This document shows, piece after piece, positions 1,519 to 29,328 of a DNA stretch of 30,271 bases; within the stretch, counting starts at the first letter, position 1, and each line of letters begins with the position of its first letter. Both the position numbers and the translations under genes were made by a program. The notes beneath the pieces were generated by a model. That model did not search any database and was not told the DNA's origin. It was given only the letters and a program-made list of their open reading frames with translations. The stretch lies in the IMG/VR virus record IMGVR_UViG_3300036546_000398, positions 1-30,271 of that record; one strand, given 5' to 3'. Source of the DNA: a virus (taxonomy: Duplodnaviria; Caudoviricetes).

Positions 1519-1546
1519 TTGACATACACGCAAACGTCAGTATAAT
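1519..1546 (+). promoter_or_regulatory. sigma70 promoter of tRNA-Asn
   Basis: TTGACA (1519-1524), 16-bp spacer, TATAAT (1541-1546), with an A-tract upstream; typical of stable-RNA promoters. Confidence 0.9.
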
Positions 1547-1608: not shown

Positions 1609-1684
1609 TCCCTGGTAGCTCAGTTGGTAGAGCAGGCGGCTGTTAACCGCCTTGTCGCAGGTTCGAGTCCTGCCCGGGGAGCCA
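1609..1684 (+). tRNA. tRNA-Asn (anticodon GTT)
   Basis: 76 nt; acceptor TCCCTGG/CCGGGGA, D-arm GCTCAGTTGGTAGAGC, anticodon arm GGCGG-CTGTTAA-CCGCC, T-loop GTTCGAGTC, encoded CCA. Confidence 0.98.
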
Positions 1685-1848: not shown

Positions 1849-2664
1849 TCACATCCCGAACAACCCCTCCTGATATCCCTTTGGTGTTGGAACTCCACCC
1901 GGCCAGGTTCCGTAGATAAGTTCGACGCAATCACTCTGTTTTGCCCCTCCGCCTACCGTGTATTGGTAGTCTACTTCCACCACGGGAAGATCCTTGAACA
2001 GGGCCCTGATATCCGGATGATCGTTGATGGAGATGATCATCTGACCTTTTATTGTGCCAGCCAGTTTGGCCATTGCTTCGTATTGCTCCCATCCGAACGA
2101 CACCCCGTAACCTTCTGTTTGCCAGTATGGAGGGTCACAATAAAAGAGCGTATGCGGCCGGTCATATTTAAGTATTACCTCCTGCCAGTCAAGGTGCTCG
2201 ATGGTGGTGTTGGCCAATCGAAAATGGGCGTCTGCCAGATCCTGCTCCAGGGTAAAAATATTAAACCTTGGCCGACTGGTGGTGGCCGTGCCGAAGGATT
2301 GCCCGTCTACCTTGCCGCCGAAGGCGAGCTTTTGCAGATAAAGGAATCTGGCTGCTCGTTGTACGTCTGTCAGGGTTTGGGGCGGTGTGGCCTGCAGCCA
2401 CTCCCAATTCCGGCGACTGGTTAAGACCCATTTGAATTGCTTGTAAAGCTCCTCTAAATGATGTTTTACAACCCGGTAAAGGTTGACCAGGTCGCCGTGC
2501 ACATCGTTGATGACCTCGACTTCGGATGGCTGCTTGAGAAAGAATAATGCGGCCGCTCCGCAGAACGGCTCCACATAGCACTTATGGGCCGGGAAAATTG
2601 GCAGTATATGATCGGCGAGTTTTCGTTTGCCGCCGATCCATGGAATAATTGGTTTGCTGGACAT
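1849..2664 (-). CDS. D12-class (Dam-like) N6-adenine DNA methyltransferase in the mom position
   Basis: PWIGGK, motif I YVEPFCGAAA, VINDVHGDL, catalytic motif IV YCDPPY; SD GAGG 6 nt upstream. Confidence 0.92.
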   Translation of the reverse strand: MSSKPIIPWIGGKRKLADHILPIFPAHKCYVEPFCGAAALFFLKQPSEVEVINDVHGDLVNLYRVVKHHLEELYKQFKWVLTSRRNWEWLQATPPQTLTDVQRAARFLYLQKLAFGGKVDGQSFGTATTSRPRFNIFTLEQDLADAHFRLANTTIEHLDWQEVILKYDRPHTLFYCDPPYWQTEGYGVSFGWEQYEAMAKLAGTIKGQMIISINDHPDIRALFKDLPVVEVDYQYTVGGGAKQSDCVELIYGTWPGGVPTPKGYQEGLFGM

Positions 2665-2679
2665 AATGAGCCTCTATTG

Positions 2680-2709
2680 TTGTCTTGAGTTGTCTGATTG
2701 TGATAGGCT
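2680..2709 (+). promoter_or_regulatory. Candidate antisense promoter in the methyltransferase leader
   Basis: TTGTCT (2680-2685), 18 bp, extended -10 TGaTAGGCT (2701-2709). Confidence 0.45.
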
Positions 2710-2715
2710 CCTCCC

Positions 2716-2825
2716 GCCGTGACGTCGCGGGGAGGGAGCCTTCGGCTTGGCTCACAGTCCCAGTTACTGTGGGTTGGGCGGTCGGGTGGTGTTCCAGCAC
2801 CTCTCGGCCGCTCCCTCTACTATTT
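2716..2825 (+). ncRNA. Candidate antisense RNA to the methyltransferase leader
   Basis: Hairpins at 2717-2730, 2749-2775 and 2776-2813 contain about 8 G-U pairs on the + strand that become A-C mismatches on the - strand. Confidence 0.55.
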
Positions 2826-3048
2826 ACACTTCAAATTCATACACCGTCAGATCCGGTGCCTCGCCCTTGATCCACCCTCCCTGCACATAGGCTGTCAGTC
2901 CAACAGCTACGCCCTGCCCTTTTACTAGAGCATAGCCTCCGCCGGGGAATTGTACCGTGCTGGTGCCGTCGCTGTTGTGGGCATTTACTGTTGCCACCAG
3001 CAGTGGTTCTTTAGGCAGCAGGTCTTGGAAGCGCCTCCATAAATTCAT
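2824..3048 (-). CDS. Small tail-module protein (74 aa, MNLWRRFQDLL...)
   Basis: ATG at 3048, 4 nt after the upstream stop, with SD GGAG; short beta-rich sequence at the end of the tail operon. Confidence 0.7.
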   Translation of the reverse strand: MNLWRRFQDLLPKEPLLVATVNAHNSDGTSTVQFPGGGYALVKGQGVAVGLTAYVQGGWIKGEAPDLTVYEFEV

Positions 3049-3052
3049 TCTC

Positions 3053-5083
3053 TTAGCTCCCGTGATAGCGCAGCACGTCGATGGTTTGGTTGACGGTTGG
3101 CCTGGCAGCGGTGATGTTGGTGCGGATGACTTGACCGCGCCAGGTTTCGGTGTCCTGGGTCTCGATGATGGATCCAGGGACAAGCAGTCCGGGGTTGTCG
3201 AGTAGCGGCAGGTTGAGGGTTTCGATGCTGCGTGCGCCGCTGTCGGCTAAAATCTTTTTGCCGAGGGCCAGGCCGGGTTCAGTGGCGGTGATCAGTGGGT
3301 GGACTTGTTGTCCGGCGAGGCGGCTGCCGTCGGTGCCGCTGCGGCGCACAAAGCAGGTGACGCCTTGCTGTTGGCCTCGGCAGTAGACGCCGGTGTAGGC
3401 CGGCCGTGGTTCAAAGCGGCCACGGCGGCTGTCGATCATGGCGGATGGGACCACGGCATCGATGGCGACTCCGCCCCAGTTCCAGGGCAGGACCGGGTAC
3501 CTGGGCTGGATGAGCAGCTGCTGGCTTGATGGATGCGACTGTACCACGCCTCCTGCGGCGGCCGCGATCTGGGCGATAGCCTGGATGGGGGTTTGTCCCT
3601 GATAGCTCCAGACGCCACCGGGGATCAGCCATTCGGGCAGGCTCCAGGCGATAGTAAAACCGGTGTCGGTCAACTCATCCTCGGCGAGCTGCTGAGCGGT
3701 GCGCTGCTGGGTCTGGATGAGATCGCGCGGGGCGCTGTACGGGTCGGCCAGGTAGGCGGACAGGCTGCGGCCGGTGGCGGTATAGGCGCGTTGCCCCCAG
3801 CGGATTTCCTCGCCGTATTCCTCGATGGCGAAGCGCCAGCTCAAGCCGTTGATGGTGGCTTCCACTTCGACCGGCGCGCCGCCGGAGGGGCGTACCAGAT
3901 CGAGGTCGGTTTTACGCACCAGGGTGGCGCTCAGGCTCCAGGCCCAGCTGTCGCGGTCGGTACCGACAGAGAGGTTTTCGACGGGGATCGGTACGCCGTC
4001 GGCGAGACGGATGAGGCTGACGGTATTCATGACAAAATAGACCTTCCGGATGTTGGGCCGGGCAATATTCCACGACCGGGGCTTGTACCAGTACGGATCC
4101 TTGGGACCGTTCCAGGTGCCGTCGTAGCAGTGGCGCGGGTAGTTGCTGCTCAAATCAGCGAACAGCAGCGCGTCACCGGCCGGCACCAGATAGCCGCTGA
4201 CGGCGTCGAACAGGATCTGATCGCCCCTTGGGGGATCGTAGCGGTTAACGCACCAGCGCGGGTACCAGTTCGGGCCGCTGACGATGGGGACAATCACATC
4301 TTTAGCGGCCGGCGCGCTGTAAGCGGCGGCGGTGTTCCGGGCCAGCTTTTCGAGGCTGTCCCACAGAAGTCGCCTGGTCGTGTCGTTAGACTCCGGGTAG
4401 CAGTACCCGGCAAGCAGTTGTCGCAGCCTCGGCGCAAGAACCCCGCCCCAGGGTATCTCAAAGCGCTCGCGGTTTTTGGTGGCAGGATGGGCGTAGCGCA
4501 TACCGGCATCGTGTTTAATCTGTTGCCGCAGATCACCCCATGGGGCTGTGGCCTGCCGGTTCATTGCCGGGATAGCGGCCCATGGTTGGGTGGCGGCACG
4601 CTCGGTGCGTTGTTGCTCTCCCCACGGCACAGCTGTGCGCGGCTCGATAGGCGGCGCCTGCCGGTGGTGGTGGCCGGTGCGGTGCTCGATGCGGGTGCCG
4701 TCCGTCCAGCGGGCGCGATAGCTGCCACCAAATGGCACCGGGATATACCAGCTGGGTGCCGTCTCGGCCGAGGCGGTCAGTGGCAGCTCGATCGTAGCGG
4801 CGGCTTGCGTAACCAGCATGGCCGATGCGGCGGCTGTTACGGCGATATCCATCTGCGCCGATATCGCCGTAAACCCACCTATCGTGGCCGAGGCCTGTAT
4901 CCCGGTATCGACGACGGCCGAAACCGTAAGGACCTGCCACGCGTCGGCCGATACCGCGATCCCGAGATCGACGACGGCCGACATCTCCAGGTATTGAGAA
5001 GCAGCTCCACCGAAAATAACAGCGTCGCCGGCCGGAGGAACATACGCCGGCTGCGATACCGCCGAAAAGACGATATCAGGCAT
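3053..5083 (-). CDS. Tail tip/hub-type structural protein (676 aa)
   Basis: Long ORF overlapping its neighbour in the tail operon; N-terminal ~20-aa Ala/Val/Ser repeats. Confidence 0.7.
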   Translation of the reverse strand: MPDIVFSAVSQPAYVPPAGDAVIFGGAASQYLEMSAVVDLGIAVSADAWQVLTVSAVVDTGIQASATIGGFTAISAQMDIAVTAAASAMLVTQAAATIELPLTASAETAPSWYIPVPFGGSYRARWTDGTRIEHRTGHHHRQAPPIEPRTAVPWGEQQRTERAATQPWAAIPAMNRQATAPWGDLRQQIKHDAGMRYAHPATKNRERFEIPWGGVLAPRLRQLLAGYCYPESNDTTRRLLWDSLEKLARNTAAAYSAPAAKDVIVPIVSGPNWYPRWCVNRYDPPRGDQILFDAVSGYLVPAGDALLFADLSSNYPRHCYDGTWNGPKDPYWYKPRSWNIARPNIRKVYFVMNTVSLIRLADGVPIPVENLSVGTDRDSWAWSLSATLVRKTDLDLVRPSGGAPVEVEATINGLSWRFAIEEYGEEIRWGQRAYTATGRSLSAYLADPYSAPRDLIQTQQRTAQQLAEDELTDTGFTIAWSLPEWLIPGGVWSYQGQTPIQAIAQIAAAAGGVVQSHPSSQQLLIQPRYPVLPWNWGGVAIDAVVPSAMIDSRRGRFEPRPAYTGVYCRGQQQGVTCFVRRSGTDGSRLAGQQVHPLITATEPGLALGKKILADSGARSIETLNLPLLDNPGLLVPGSIIETQDTETWRGQVIRTNITAARPTVNQTIDVLRYHGS

Positions 5084-19357: not shown

Positions 19358-19431
19358 ATGCAGGCGACGGTTGGGCTGTGCCCCGATAACCGATTGCCGG
19401 GCGACGTGATCTGCACGGAGGTCATAGTCTC
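19358..19431 (+). ncRNA. Candidate structured small RNA downstream of the antisense promoter
   Basis: Nested stems GGCGA/TTGCC, CGGTT/AACCG, GGGC/GCCC, closed by TGCA(G)/(C)TGCA; G-U pairs favour the + strand; 3' end unknown. Confidence 0.45.
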
Positions 19432-20629
19432 AGTCCCTTCCATACACCAGCCTTCCCTTGCGCAAGTTTTTCAAACCGCTCACGCTCCCCCGAAACATAT
19501 CGCCGCTGACCCAGTGGCCGTTTTCGATCTCGGCATACAAGCCCAACACCCGATCCTTATCCAGGCTCACTAGCTTGACGTATTTTCGCCGCAGGGCCAC
19601 CCGGCCGGATAACTGGCTTTGCGCAAAATTGATCCAGATCTCCTGCGGATCCTCAATAAGCTCGCGAATCAGGGGGAAGTAAGCATCACGGCCGTCCCAG
19701 CGGGAGTCCGGTTTTGCAAGGATGTGGTCGACCAGGGCCTGGGTCACCCGGACCGGCGTGCCGGTCGGGTCGGAGATATCGGCAGCATCCCCTCCGATAG
19801 CCGACCTAAGAGACTTCCGCAAACCTGCCTCATCGCCTTTTGGTACCGGATGACCAAGCCTGGCCACCGCACGATCTGCGCTCAGCTTGGCCGGCCGGCC
19901 AGCCATCTTCGGACCCCACGGGTGCAAATCGTTCCACGGCCCCAGATCCTCCATCAGTCGCGTCGCTTCGTTGCGGCCCCAGGCGGCCTCGCCAACGTTG
20001 TAATCCCAGCCTTTGCCGATCCCTTCAGGCGCGCCGGTTTTCGGATCGATGGTCACATGGGGGGCTTGATCTGGATCGTCCTTGCCCAGCTTCTGTAGCT
20101 GCCGCTTACTTAGCGCTTCGACAAAGCACTTGCAGCCCCAGTCGTTTGGCGGATAGTGGGTTTGCCACCAGGGATCGTCCGCGGCCAACACCAGCCCGTC
20201 CCAGGCCAGATGCTGCAGCCTCGGCTGGCGGCTATCGCCGTGGCGATAACGCCAGTAAGGGCGATAGCTGGCCACGTCCGGATCGGTCATCTGAGCATGA
20301 CGGCCCGCTTGGTGAGCAGTGCGCAGGTTGGTCTCAAAAATCACCCGGCTGCGCCATCCGCGACTGCCGTTGTAGCTCCATCCATGGGTGGCCACGATGC
20401 GATCGAAATCCTTGCGAAAGCTCTCCAATGTGCCGCCGCTTTCCAGAGCCTTGTCGATGGCGCCGCGAAAATCGGCTAACAGCGCATCGCGTTGAGCGCC
20501 GGCAATCATGAACCCGCGCGCGTGCATGTCTTTCCACAGGTCGTCCCAGCGCCGAGTAGGGATGTTGACCTTTTGGCGGAAAAAAGCGATCGCCTCTTTA
20601 AATGGAAGATCAACTGCCGTTACACTCAT
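19430..20629 (-). CDS. Mu gpF-like minor head protein with a C-terminal RelE/barnase-like (PBECR-type) nuclease-fold extension
   Basis: MuF motifs IFETNLRTAHQAGR, PRLQHLAWDG, DDPWWQTHYPPNDWGCKC, GWDYNVG; extra ~170 aa with DHI...GRDAY..LI.E.IEDPQEIW...RRKYVK and terminal RKGRLVYGR. Confidence 0.82.
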   Translation of the reverse strand: MSVTAVDLPFKEAIAFFRQKVNIPTRRWDDLWKDMHARGFMIAGAQRDALLADFRGAIDKALESGGTLESFRKDFDRIVATHGWSYNGSRGWRSRVIFETNLRTAHQAGRHAQMTDPDVASYRPYWRYRHGDSRQPRLQHLAWDGLVLAADDPWWQTHYPPNDWGCKCFVEALSKRQLQKLGKDDPDQAPHVTIDPKTGAPEGIGKGWDYNVGEAAWGRNEATRLMEDLGPWNDLHPWGPKMAGRPAKLSADRAVARLGHPVPKGDEAGLRKSLRSAIGGDAADISDPTGTPVRVTQALVDHILAKPDSRWDGRDAYFPLIRELIEDPQEIWINFAQSQLSGRVALRRKYVKLVSLDKDRVLGLYAEIENGHWVSGDMFRGSVSGLKNLRKGRLVYGRD

Positions 20630-28016: not shown

Positions 28017-28115
28017 AAAATTGTCATTTGTCCTTTGTTATTTTCGTGCGGACGTATTACGTACGCGCCATCCCGGCGCGGTTTCGAGCAACGCCCGGGG
28101 CGACATGTCATTTAT

Positions 28116-28184
28116 TGGCTGCTCTTCAGTGCCGGGCCACCACGCCCGGCAGACCGGCCCCCGAAGGGGCGCGGTTTCGCGCCA
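28116..28184 (-). ncRNA. Type II hammerhead ribozyme
   Basis: UGGCGC-GAAA-CCG..CCCC(UUCG)GGGG..CGG-UC^-UGCCGGGC-GUGGUG-GCCCGGCA-CUGAAGA-GCAGCCA; full catalytic core; cleavage predicted between 28152 and 28151. Confidence 0.88.
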
Positions 28185-28363: not shown

Positions 28364-29014
28364 TTACAGCCTCCCCTCATTGCGCAGCCGCTTGATGATC
28401 GAGGTCACCCCACCGGCTGGCCGTCCAACCTTCTCGCCGATCTCGGTCGGGCCGCACCCCTTGAGCACCAATTGGATAATTTCCTCTTCCTGCTCGGGCG
28501 TGGCGTTGGGTCGCTTGCGCTCCTCCAACTCTTGGACCAGCAGCCGCAACTCGGCGACCTCGATGCGCAGTTCCAGGTTCTCTCTGTCACGCCGGTGGAT
28601 GACCTCCTCGTCGGGCCCAAGCTTCACCGCCCCAGGCTCGGGGAGGGCGGAGGTAGGCGGGCAGCGGGTTCCCATCCAAAAGTCCGCGAGTACCACGTCG
28701 CACCTCTCCTGGTATAGCACCAGCCCCGGGCGCGCCTCGGCCTTGACCTTGTTTGGATCGATGCTGAAGAGGAAGGCGGCGGTCTTCCCCATGGGGATAC
28801 AAAGCGCTTGCTGCGGACCACCCGCCGAAGGTGTGGTCATCATGACCACACCCCAGCGATCTGGCGCCGCCATGAGTTTGCGGTACTGGACCTTCCAGTC
28901 CAGGCTCAGGTTCTCGACAATGGGGCGCACAGGCACGTAGGGCTTGCCCGCCTCGTCGATGAGGTACAGGGTGTCTTTGTGGAACGGGATAGGGATAAGT
29001 TTGTGCGTAGTCAT
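28364..29014 (-). CDS. Phage antirepressor (P22 Ant N-terminal domain + C-terminal HTH)
   Basis: IPFHKDTL....GKPYVPVRPIVENLSLDWKVQYRKL...FLFSIDPNKVK...YQERC..VL..FW; SD GGAGGA. Confidence 0.85.
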   Translation of the reverse strand: MTTHKLIPIPFHKDTLYLIDEAGKPYVPVRPIVENLSLDWKVQYRKLMAAPDRWGVVMMTTPSAGGPQQALCIPMGKTAAFLFSIDPNKVKAEARPGLVLYQERCDVVLADFWMGTRCPPTSALPEPGAVKLGPDEEVIHRRDRENLELRIEVAELRLLVQELEERKRPNATPEQEEEIIQLVLKGCGPTEIGEKVGRPAGGVTSIIKRLRNEGRL

Positions 29015-29016
29015 GG

Positions 29017-29196
29017 TCAATCCTCCTTTTCGTTACGCTTGATTTTGAACTCGGCAAGAATGCCCATGGCAAACAGGCAAATTTGCAATTCGTCGAGGGC
29101 GTCCTGCATCCGATTGAACAACGACGGTGCAGGCCTCTTGGCGGGGTACTGGCGATCGGGAAAGGGAATGACGCGGGATGGTTGTCTGCTTCTCAT
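29017..29196 (-). CDS. Small leader ORF (59 aa) at the icd-equivalent position of the c4-ant operon
   Basis: SD AAGGAG overlapping the b2 target; its stop lies between the SD and ATG of the antirepressor (translational coupling). Confidence 0.6.
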   Translation of the reverse strand: MRSRQPSRVIPFPDRQYPAKRPAPSLFNRMQDALDELQICLFAMGILAEFKIKRNEKED

Positions 29197-29254: not shown

Positions 29255-29328
29255 GGGCGAACCGTGCGGGTTAGCGGACCGGTCCAAAGGATACCGGCGA
29301 GCCCGAAGGCTCCCCACACGGCCGCCCA
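29255..29328 (-). ncRNA. C4 antisense RNA (P1 c4 / P4 CI family)
   Basis: GGGCGG-CCGUGUGGG-GAGCC(UUCG)GGCUC-GCCGGU-AUCCUUUGG-ACCGGU-CCGCUAA-CCCGCACGG-UUCGCCC; b' = CCUUUGG and a' = CCGCUAA are complementary to the flanking targets. Confidence 0.88.

What the first reader, a model, noticed from the sequence alone, without database searches (positions are those of the whole stretch)
2665..2825. Candidate antisense-RNA/anti-SD switch controlling the phage methyltransferase in place of Mu com
Seen: the 160-bp leader has no com-like zinc-finger ORF but has mutually exclusive pairings. On the mRNA (- strand), anti-SD GAGCCU (2710-2705) can pair with AGGCUC (2673-2668), which covers most of the SD GAGG. 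It can instead be captured by AGGCUCC (2741-2735). That segment overlaps GCUCCCUC (2739-2732), which can pair with GAGGGAGC (2817-2810), 6 nt after the upstream stop codon. On the + strand, an extended -10 (TGaTAGGCT) precedes three hairpins holding about 8 G-U pairs that are A-C mismatches on the mRNA, which suggests selection on a + strand RNA. Known: Mu mom is silenced by a leader hairpin that Com opens. Inference: a ~110-nt counter-transcript from ~2716 would cover the anti-anti-SD but not the anti-SD, locking the MTase off in the lysogen. Late transcription, or ribosomes terminating upstream, would switch it on.
Basis: partly seen in the sequence, partly recalled or inferred. Interest (0 to 1): 0.78.

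Follow-up and report, generated by a model that had tools for sequence, protein, structure and literature searches.

The report
Self-pairing antisense RNA guards phage methylase
In front of this prophage's DNA methylase gene lies a control cassette that many unrelated phages share and no Rfam family covers: the opposite strand likely makes a folded RNA of about 107 bases that probably keeps the methylase off, and its first 14 bases are self-complementary, which would let two copies pair with each other.

Summary
It lies upstream of 125 of 160 homologous phage methylases, and in VP882, B3, phiE125 and E. coli EC958. No Rfam family reaches its threshold.

Antisense gene, strongly supported: extended -10 (A-11 and T-7 in 85 of 85), likely start 2716, covarying three-way junction, G-U wobbles on the + strand (108:1, 147:4, 186:32), weak U tail. 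No transcript was seen.

Corrections: (1) it does not replace com; 50 of 57 com-carrying loci have it. (2) The covarying anti-SD is UGAGCC (2754-2749), not GAGCCU (z -11.7 versus -1.4). (3) The GAGGGAGC helix belongs to the antisense RNA, so the upstream-ribosome switch is unsupported.

Added here: the RNA's 5' end is self-complementary with no loop (12 nt or more in 80 of 85), kept through at least 45 sequence changes, which points to homodimerisation.

Likely mechanism: the nascent mRNA is briefly translatable, then buries its RBS; the antisense RNA removes that window. The sign is unproven. This scan noted the same family before on other DNA.

The parts
1849..2664 (-). D12-class (Dam-like) DNA adenine methyltransferase, 271 aa, last gene before the Mu-like prophage's right end; the controlled gene
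   Evidence: Pfam PF02086 E 7e-32; TIGR00571 just under cut-off; 62% identical to B3 ORF48 and 63% to the VP882 methylase
2665..2676 (-). Ribosome-binding region; SD GAGG 2674-2671; GGCUCA 2672-2667 is the masked stretch
2677..2700 (-). A-rich spacer of variable length, poorly conserved, predicted unpaired
   Evidence: alignment columns 168-200
2701..2709 (+). Extended -10 promoter TGnTAnnnT of the antisense RNA (predicted); no conserved -35 seen by eye
   Evidence: T-12 83, A-11 85, T-7 85, T-15 69, G-14 76 of 85; 44, 46, 46, 40, 37 of 46 in the second set
2705..2710 (-).
2716..2822 (+). Predicted antisense small RNA of about 107 nt (family 98-113 nt): 5' self-complementary block, three-way junction, weak U tail
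   Evidence: pyrimidine-purine at -1/+1 in 72 of 85
2717..2730 (+). Loopless self-complementary block at the RNA's 5' end (centre GACGUC); predicted 14-bp homodimer, -29.5 kcal/mol
2731..2739 (+). P1 5' strand (pairs with 2810-2818)
   Evidence: 96% of cells paired, 5 of 8 pairs with two-sided changes
2745..2779 (+). P2 hairpin; its 5' arm GGCUCACAG is a copy of the RBS stretch
2749..2756 (-). Covarying anti-SD (UGUGAGCC) on the mRNA; pairs with 2672-2667
   Evidence: cognate -11.5 versus non-cognate -8.4 kcal/mol, z -11.7, 0 of 5000 permutations; z -9.2 in the second set
2780..2809 (+). P3 hairpin; apex resembles the 3' hairpin of SymR
   Evidence: 12 of 13 pairs with two-sided changes; SymR 23.7 bits against a cut-off of 61
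2810..2826 (+). P1 3' strand and U-rich tail (terminator-like, weak in this copy)
   Evidence: 5 or more U in the best 8-nt window in 65 of 85; not called by the terminator scan
2824..3066 (-). Upstream 80-aa ORF at the end of the tail genes; its stop lies 6 nt before the cassette
   Evidence: no Pfam or NCBIfam match

Best explanation
The leader is a conserved two-strand RNA control cassette that likely keeps a phage DNA-modification gene off: a predicted ~107-nt antisense RNA is likely made from an extended -10 promoter, and the mRNA is predicted to bury its own ribosome-binding site. Shown by comparison: the promoter signature, the antisense-strand structure, the UGAGCC/GGCUCA pairing, the loopless palindrome and the link to DNA-modification genes. 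Inferred: on a newly made mRNA the local hairpins P2 and C hide both SD-complementary stretches, so the RBS is open for a short time; the mRNA then refolds and UGAGCC closes the RBS, which limits the dose of enzyme. Antisense RNA already present in the lysogen would bind leaky transcripts, free GAGCCU to close the SD at once, and probably mark the duplex for RNase III. Strong lytic transcription would outnumber it. The RNA's 5' end probably forms a homodimer, which would protect the end or limit the active pool. My odds for the steps: antisense gene real 0.9, mRNA masks the RBS through the P2 arm 0.9, repressor sign 0.6, dimer forms 0.65.
For: Promoter positions are conserved in the sigma-70 pattern while the middle varies. 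Strand-neutral wobble counts favour the antisense strand in P1 108:1, P2 147:4, P3 186:32 and the 5' block 112:19, but not in the mRNA helices (51:50 and 35:49); flanks show no matching skew. Structure: 33 of 40 pairs have two-sided changes, 90% of cells pair, 0 of 500 shuffles reach this, slid registers give 40-53%; the same holds in a second, model-fitted set. The antisense fold is more stable in 85 of 85. P2 arm and RBS covary (G-C 41, A-U 26 at one pair; U-A 57, C-G 10 at another, of 72). The nascent prefix forms P2 in 74 and the C base in 69 of 85. Masking the P2 arm lowers the cost of opening the RBS from 8.3 to 4.5 kcal/mol in the window (family mean 7.0 to 5.4). With antisense bound, GAGCCU takes over. 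The EC958 homologue with the element is probably M.EcoMIV, reported as weakly transcribed and without an assignable methylation pattern (PMC4659465, passages).
Against: No transcript was observed. At equilibrium the antisense RNA does not change RBS access in a consistent direction: easier in 28, harder in 31, unchanged in 13 of 72. GAGCCU/SD pairing reaches -6 kcal/mol in only 39 of 72 and has no cognate advantage. The timed ON window rests on folding a prefix at equilibrium, not on a kinetic simulation. In EC958 the methylase lies opposite to the late genes, so late read-through is not universal. Toxicity and specificity of this enzyme are untested. Sequences are related, so counts overstate independent events.
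Confidence: 0.5

Rival explanations
1. The antisense RNA is an activator (anti-antisense, as DsrA on rpoS, recalled): it binds the covarying anti-SD UGAGCC and frees the RBS, so the enzyme is made only where mRNA and enough antisense RNA coincide, for example after phage replication.
For: The RNA covers the anti-SD fully and its P2 arm copies the RBS stretch. Binding lowers the opening cost in 28 of 72; without GAGCCU the mean cost falls from 7.0 to 4.0 kcal/mol. The back-up GAGCCU pairing does not covary.
Against: In most models GAGCCU closes the SD once freed (median 5.5 bp; window 6.0 bp, cost 7.3 kcal/mol), and its five core pairs survive as Watson-Crick or mRNA-side G-U in 62-69 of 72. 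A 100-bp duplex would be an RNase III substrate (established knowledge).
Confidence: 0.2
2. The effect is transcriptional: the opposing promoter silences read-through by collision or competition, as momP2 competes with momP1 in Mu; the RNA fold serves stability and termination.
For: Mu has a divergent overlapping promoter that competes for polymerase (PMC4287176, PMC3378877, passages). The promoter is the most conserved part of the cassette.
Against: Here the promoter is convergent into the incoming transcript, not overlapping a sense promoter. It does not explain a conserved three-way junction of 98-113 nt, the 5' palindrome or the RBS pairing.
Confidence: 0.12
3. The RNA mainly acts on a protein (Com, the methylase or a host factor) as a structured, possibly dimeric decoy or inhibitor; antisense overlap is secondary.
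For: Near-invariant junction bases, narrow length range, SymR-like P3 apex and a dimer-ready 5' end exceed what plain antisense pairing needs.
Against: The same RNA precedes unrelated enzymes (D12, N6/N4, C5, Eco57I-like, ABC/GNAT) and occurs with or without com, so no single phage protein travels with it.
Confidence: 0.1
4. One reading: GAGCCU is the anti-SD, and ribosomes ending the upstream gene switch translation on by blocking GAGGGAGC, replacing Com.
For: All pairings exist in the window. An upstream stop lies within 15 nt in 44 of the 76 leaders where one was found. Masking lowers the window's cost from 8.3 to 6.3 kcal/mol.
Against: P1 is antisense-specific (108:1) and rarely forms on the mRNA model (3 of 85); no family-wide effect; com co-occurs; 32 of 76 stops are farther than 15 nt.
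Confidence: 0.05

Closest known systems
Phage Mu com-mom control and the com + adenine methylase operons of B3, FluMu and Pnm1 (PMC3299994, PMC3378877, PMC4287176; passages seen)
   Same: DNA-modification gene at the end of a Mu-like genome, under several layers of control; an opposing promoter upstream; the element is present upstream of B3 com.
   Different: No com or mom in this window. Control lies upstream of com where com exists. A discrete structured antisense RNA with a palindromic 5' end was not found in the passages read.
SymR antitoxin RNA (Rfam RF01809)
   Same: Short cis-antisense RNA with two hairpins; P3 apex matches the SymR 3' hairpin (E 0.022).
   Different: 23.7 bits against a cut-off of 61; my model does not hit the E. 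coli symR locus; SymR overlaps the symE start, this RNA ends 40 nt or more short of the SD; extra P1 and 5' block; the target is a methylase.
Plasmid counter-transcripts (Rfam RF00236 ctRNA_pGA1; CopA, Inc RNA recalled)
   Same: Antisense to a leader, acting at a distance from the RBS through alternative leader folds.
   Different: Best score 29.5 against 45, in 1 of 20 loci; phage context; no rep gene.
Type I toxin-antitoxin leaders such as hok/sok, tisB/IstR-1, aapA/IsoA (recalled, not tested by a call)
   Same: mRNA that buries its own SD, transient folds, a small antisense RNA acting upstream of the RBS.
   Different: The product is an enzyme of 250-270 aa; a 5'-3' fold-back was tested and is not conserved.
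Palindrome-driven RNA dimers: HIV-1 DIS, hatchet ribozyme (PMC7357161, passages)
   Same: GC-rich self-complementary 4-6-mers at a hairpin apex, including GUGCAC and ACGU, both of which occur here.
   Different: Here the block is 12-16 nt, at the very 5' end of a phage antisense RNA, and changes sequence freely; dimerisation is only predicted.

Membership tests
SymR (RF01809) | Rfam score at or above 61 bits | tested here: not met
   23.7 bits; no SymR hit in 20 homologous loci
SymR (RF01809) | Overlaps the start of a symE toxin gene | tested here: not met
   symR overlaps the symE start in K-12; here the RNA starts about 50 nt upstream of a methylase ATG
SymR (RF01809) | Reciprocal match of the family model to symR | tested here: not met
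   model R2 gives no hit in L161 at E up to 1
ctRNA_pGA1 (RF00236) | Rfam score at or above 45 bits; antisense to a plasmid rep leader | tested here: not met
   29.5 bits in L107 only; downstream genes are com or methylases
Mu com-mom system | com zinc-finger ORF before the modification gene | tested here: not met
   none in the leader; present in 57 of 160 homologous loci
Mu com-mom system | Mom as the modifying enzyme | tested here: not met
   the gene is PF02086
Mu com-mom system | Com binds and opens a leader hairpin | not testable with these tools
   needs binding or reporter assays
   no such Rfam hit in the window or 20 homologous loci; the name gave no paper and is not in the main text of PMC5737381, whose supplement could not be read
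cis-encoded antisense regulatory RNA (general kind) | Own promoter, fold and terminator on the strand opposite a leader | tested here: met
   by conservation and covariation; terminator weak
cis-encoded antisense regulatory RNA (general kind) | Transcript detected | tested here: inconclusive
   only unstranded contigs with small shares were available
cis-encoded antisense regulatory RNA (general kind) | Changes target expression by base pairing | not testable with these tools
   folding models give mixed signs
Non-specific Mu-like adenine methylases (Hia5, Hin1523, Nma1821) | Sequence-independent adenine methylation | not tested
   no sequence comparison with these enzymes was made; activity not testable here

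The most novel reading that the evidence does not exclude
The antisense RNA counts prophage copies by pairing with itself. At one copy per cell it is a monomer whose 5' end invades the mRNA leader and keeps the methylase off. When the phage replicates, RNA levels rise, the palindromic 5' ends lock into 14-16-bp homodimers, repression fails and the modification enzyme is made just before packaging. Different palindromes would keep co-resident phages from cross-pairing. This would be a protein-free concentration switch built on RNA homodimerisation.
Probability: 0.15. Interest if true: 0.9.

Novelty: new variant of a known kind. Interest (0 to 1): 0.7.

Why it matters
Phage DNA-modification genes protect against restriction and can harm the host, and outside Mu little is known of how they are timed. 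This cassette precedes such genes in model phages (VP882, B3, phiE125, MuM16-1). It was found in 56 of 151 sampled genomes of one genus (Pseudomonas by the seed record's title) and in 556 of 5426 complete E. coli genomes. It travels with at least four methylase classes. It offers a direct, testable reason why many prophage methylases look silent. Natural RNAs that work as homodimers are described as rare (PMC7357161), and a palindrome kept through dozens of sequence changes is unusually clear comparative evidence for one.

Tried and rejected
Rfam: no family at threshold over the leader; weak SymR and miRNA hits only; 20 homologous loci gave tRNAs, a weak ctRNA hit and a tRNA-antisense plastid hit. 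RNA evidence: 8 runs held 10% or less of the words; four were laid, all unstranded contigs; one contig covers 2581-2817 in a run only guessed to be RNA: uninformative. A 19-of-22 complement between the leader and the methylase 3' end is not conserved (z -0.9 over 80): chance. A leader peptide from the GTG at 2755 or 2800: the GTG is present in only about two thirds of homologues and indels shift the frame: rejected. Palindrome as the enzyme's own target or a protein operator: sister enzymes carry different centres, wobbles favour one strand, and 4 of 85 have a central U-G that pairs only in the antisense RNA: disfavoured, not excluded. Genome strand skew as the cause of the wobble bias: flanks are near even and mRNA helices show no such bias: rejected. 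The phylum-wide sample around a Desulfuromonas genome gave only the seed and one weak, unconfirmed hit in 151 genomes. Literature searches that found no description of this RNA; the library lacks most subscription papers, and the supplement of PMC5737381 could not be read.

Full report
Setting. The window is a Mu-like provirus (Mu gpT, I, F, portal, gp27 and GemA families; 'provirus'). The last gene before its right end, 2664-1849 on the minus strand, is a D12-class adenine methylase (PF02086, E 7e-32), 62-63% identical to the methylases of B3 and VP882. The finding is the 160 bp between it and an 80-aa ORF.

Observation. The + strand of 2712-2825 folds at z -4.4 and the mRNA strand at z -1.8. 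No com-like frame lies in the leader. Rfam gives nothing at threshold here and only a weak SymR match, 23.7 bits against 61.

The family. I fetched the best 80 of 260 viral and 80 of 163 genomic loci of the methylase. An iterated DNA profile found the element in 125 of 160: 75 directly before the methylase and 50 before a com-like ORF, out of 57 loci with com (about a dozen are copies from one genome). Of 119 near-full-length hits, 85 sequences under 90% identity, the window included, were kept; by my hand count, 26 of them precede com. A covariance model recovered 7 more among 30 of the 35 missed loci, one of them partial. It also hit VP882, B3, phiE125, MuM16-1, Bise and KP12, but not the E. 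coli symR locus. Starting from the element instead of the enzyme, 45 of 99 distinct pattern matches in viral contigs were true elements and 43 of them precede com or a D12 enzyme. The model found it in 56 of 151 genomes of one genus, 27 of 151 of one family and 2 of 151 of one phylum. Of 57 distinct loci taken from these searches, 39 precede a D12 enzyme, 16 precede com and 2 precede something else. Genes behind them include N6/N4, C5 and Eco57I-like methylases, an ABC/GNAT protein and a lectin (11 proteins scanned, 3 without a family). A close form is in 556 of 5426 E. coli genomes. So the cassette does not replace Com; it is a layer upstream of com and travels with DNA-modification genes.

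Antisense gene. On the + strand T-12, A-11 and T-7 are kept in 83, 85 and 85 of 85, and the TG extension in 69 and 76, while the middle bases vary. The second set gives 44, 46 and 46 of 46 (46 of 64 kept after removing near-copies; it was found with the model, so it is not fully independent). Six or seven bases follow the box, then pyrimidine-purine in 72 of 85, which puts +1 at 2716; predicted length 98-113 nt. Helices aligned with G-U and A-C scored alike give wobbles on the antisense strand in P1 108:1, P2 147:4, P3 186:32 and the 5' block 112:19. The flanks have no such skew. On a sequence-only alignment 33 of 40 pairs show two-sided changes, 90% of cells pair, no shuffle of 500 comes close and slid registers give 40-53%; a model-fitted second set agrees. 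A U-rich tail follows in 65 of 85, weak in this copy. No transcript could be shown.

mRNA leader. The second set gives z -9.2 and -1.2, with one row mis-parsed. Column counts show two-sided changes for the P2 arm but only one-sided G-U changes for GAGCCU. The permutation test ignores relatedness, but many distinct compensated forms occur. In ensemble models free mRNA closes the RBS with the P2 arm, and antisense-bound mRNA closes it with GAGCCU. The cost of opening is 7.0 against 7.2 kcal/mol on average, lower in 28, higher in 31 and unchanged in 13 of 72. Equilibrium folding therefore does not fix the sign. Before the RBS is made, P2 forms in 74 and the base of hairpin C in 69 of 85, hiding both complements, while P1 forms in 3. 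This suggests a transient open state, and argues against the upstream-ribosome switch.

The 5' palindrome. The apex at 2717-2730 has no loop. With antisense G-U allowed, a loopless self-complementary run of 12 nt or more occurs in 80 of 85, against 4 for P2 and 6 for P3, and against 37 when the wobble is allowed on the mRNA strand instead. The second set gives 38 of 46 against 3, 2 and 22. The central four bases are a Watson-Crick palindrome in 78 of 85, of ten different sequences, with at least 45 changes on a methylase tree (a quick tree with many weak branches). Four more have a central U-G that pairs only in the antisense RNA. The block starts 5-8 nt after the -10 box in 66 of 85, that is at about +1. 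The predicted dimer beats two hairpins by 16.8 kcal/mol on average, against 5.2 for the P3 apex; for the window RNA the dimer is -138.3 against 2 x -61.3. A hairpin needs no palindromic loop and a sense-antisense kiss needs none either, so pairing between two identical molecules is the simplest reading. It is a prediction; an operator or other DNA-level role is disfavoured but not excluded.

Mechanism. Most likely a repressing antisense RNA acting on a leader that closes itself after a short open phase (0.5). One natural data point fits silence in the lysogen: the EC958 prophage methylase (64% identical, element at E 1.5e-14) is probably M.EcoMIV, though I did not confirm the old locus tag. 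That enzyme was reported as weakly transcribed and without an assignable methylation pattern (PMC4659465). Low transcription alone could explain this.

What is known. Passages only were read of PMC3299994, PMC4287176, PMC3378877, PMC4659465, PMC8541194, PMC7357161, PMC5737381 and 10.64898/2026.09.22.753630 (64). Mu controls mom by Com and by a divergent promoter, momP2; none of these passages describes this RNA. Searches found no description. The unread supplement of PMC5737381 may bear on novelty. Type I toxin-antitoxin leaders, DsrA and the D12-methyl name are recalled. This scan's earlier notes report the same family on other genomes; they are unchecked and are not evidence. No note held all my search words when 'dimer' was among them.

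Verdict. A real, widespread and apparently uncatalogued antisense-RNA and leader cassette for phage DNA-modification genes: a new variant of a known kind, with a probable homodimer motif. Interest 0.70.

Noticed in passing
window 29255-29327 (-) and 28113-28182 (-): An Rfam C4 antisense RNA (51.9 bits) and a type II hammerhead ribozyme (62.3 bits) flank a P22_AR_N antirepressor-type gene at 28364-29020.
   Followed up: no
window 1519-1546 and 1609-1681 (+), 1692-1725: Host-side tRNA with a 12-of-12 sigma-70 promoter and a two-way terminator hairpin next to the prophage end.
   Followed up: no
window about 1760-1820: Short repeated TTTGGCACC-containing motifs after the methylase, probably the Mu-type right-end transposase sites; similar motifs follow the gene in several relatives.
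   Followed up: no
window 1883-1904 and 2780-2801: The methylase 3' end is 19 of 22 complementary to the leader P3 arm; not conserved in 80 homologues.
   Followed up: yes
window 19430-20629 (-): The Mu F head protein is fused to a PBECR2 nuclease-like domain.
   Followed up: no
L307, L308, L309 downstream of com: In some genomes the cassette and com precede non-methylase cargo: a B-lectin protein, a glyoxalase-like protein, an unknown protein.
   Followed up: partly
P3 apex in L036, L041, L044, L047, L105, L106, L140, L154: The SymR-like apex occurs in the inverted orientation in a subset of the family, which may point to a DNA-level or two-strand role.
   Followed up: no
L245 and L032: L245 has the cassette with a broken palindrome centre and no downstream ORF found; L032 keeps only the promoter-side half behind an inserted gene.
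   Followed up: partly
L366:33634-34551 (EC958): Here the cassette and methylase lie opposite to the late genes and converge on the repressor-like gene.
   Followed up: partly
L065, L066, L068, L074, L131, L132, L135, L136, L145, L148: Enterobacterial homologues lack the cassette and instead carry GATC-rich leaders, reminiscent of Dam-dependent control in Mu (recalled).
   Followed up: no
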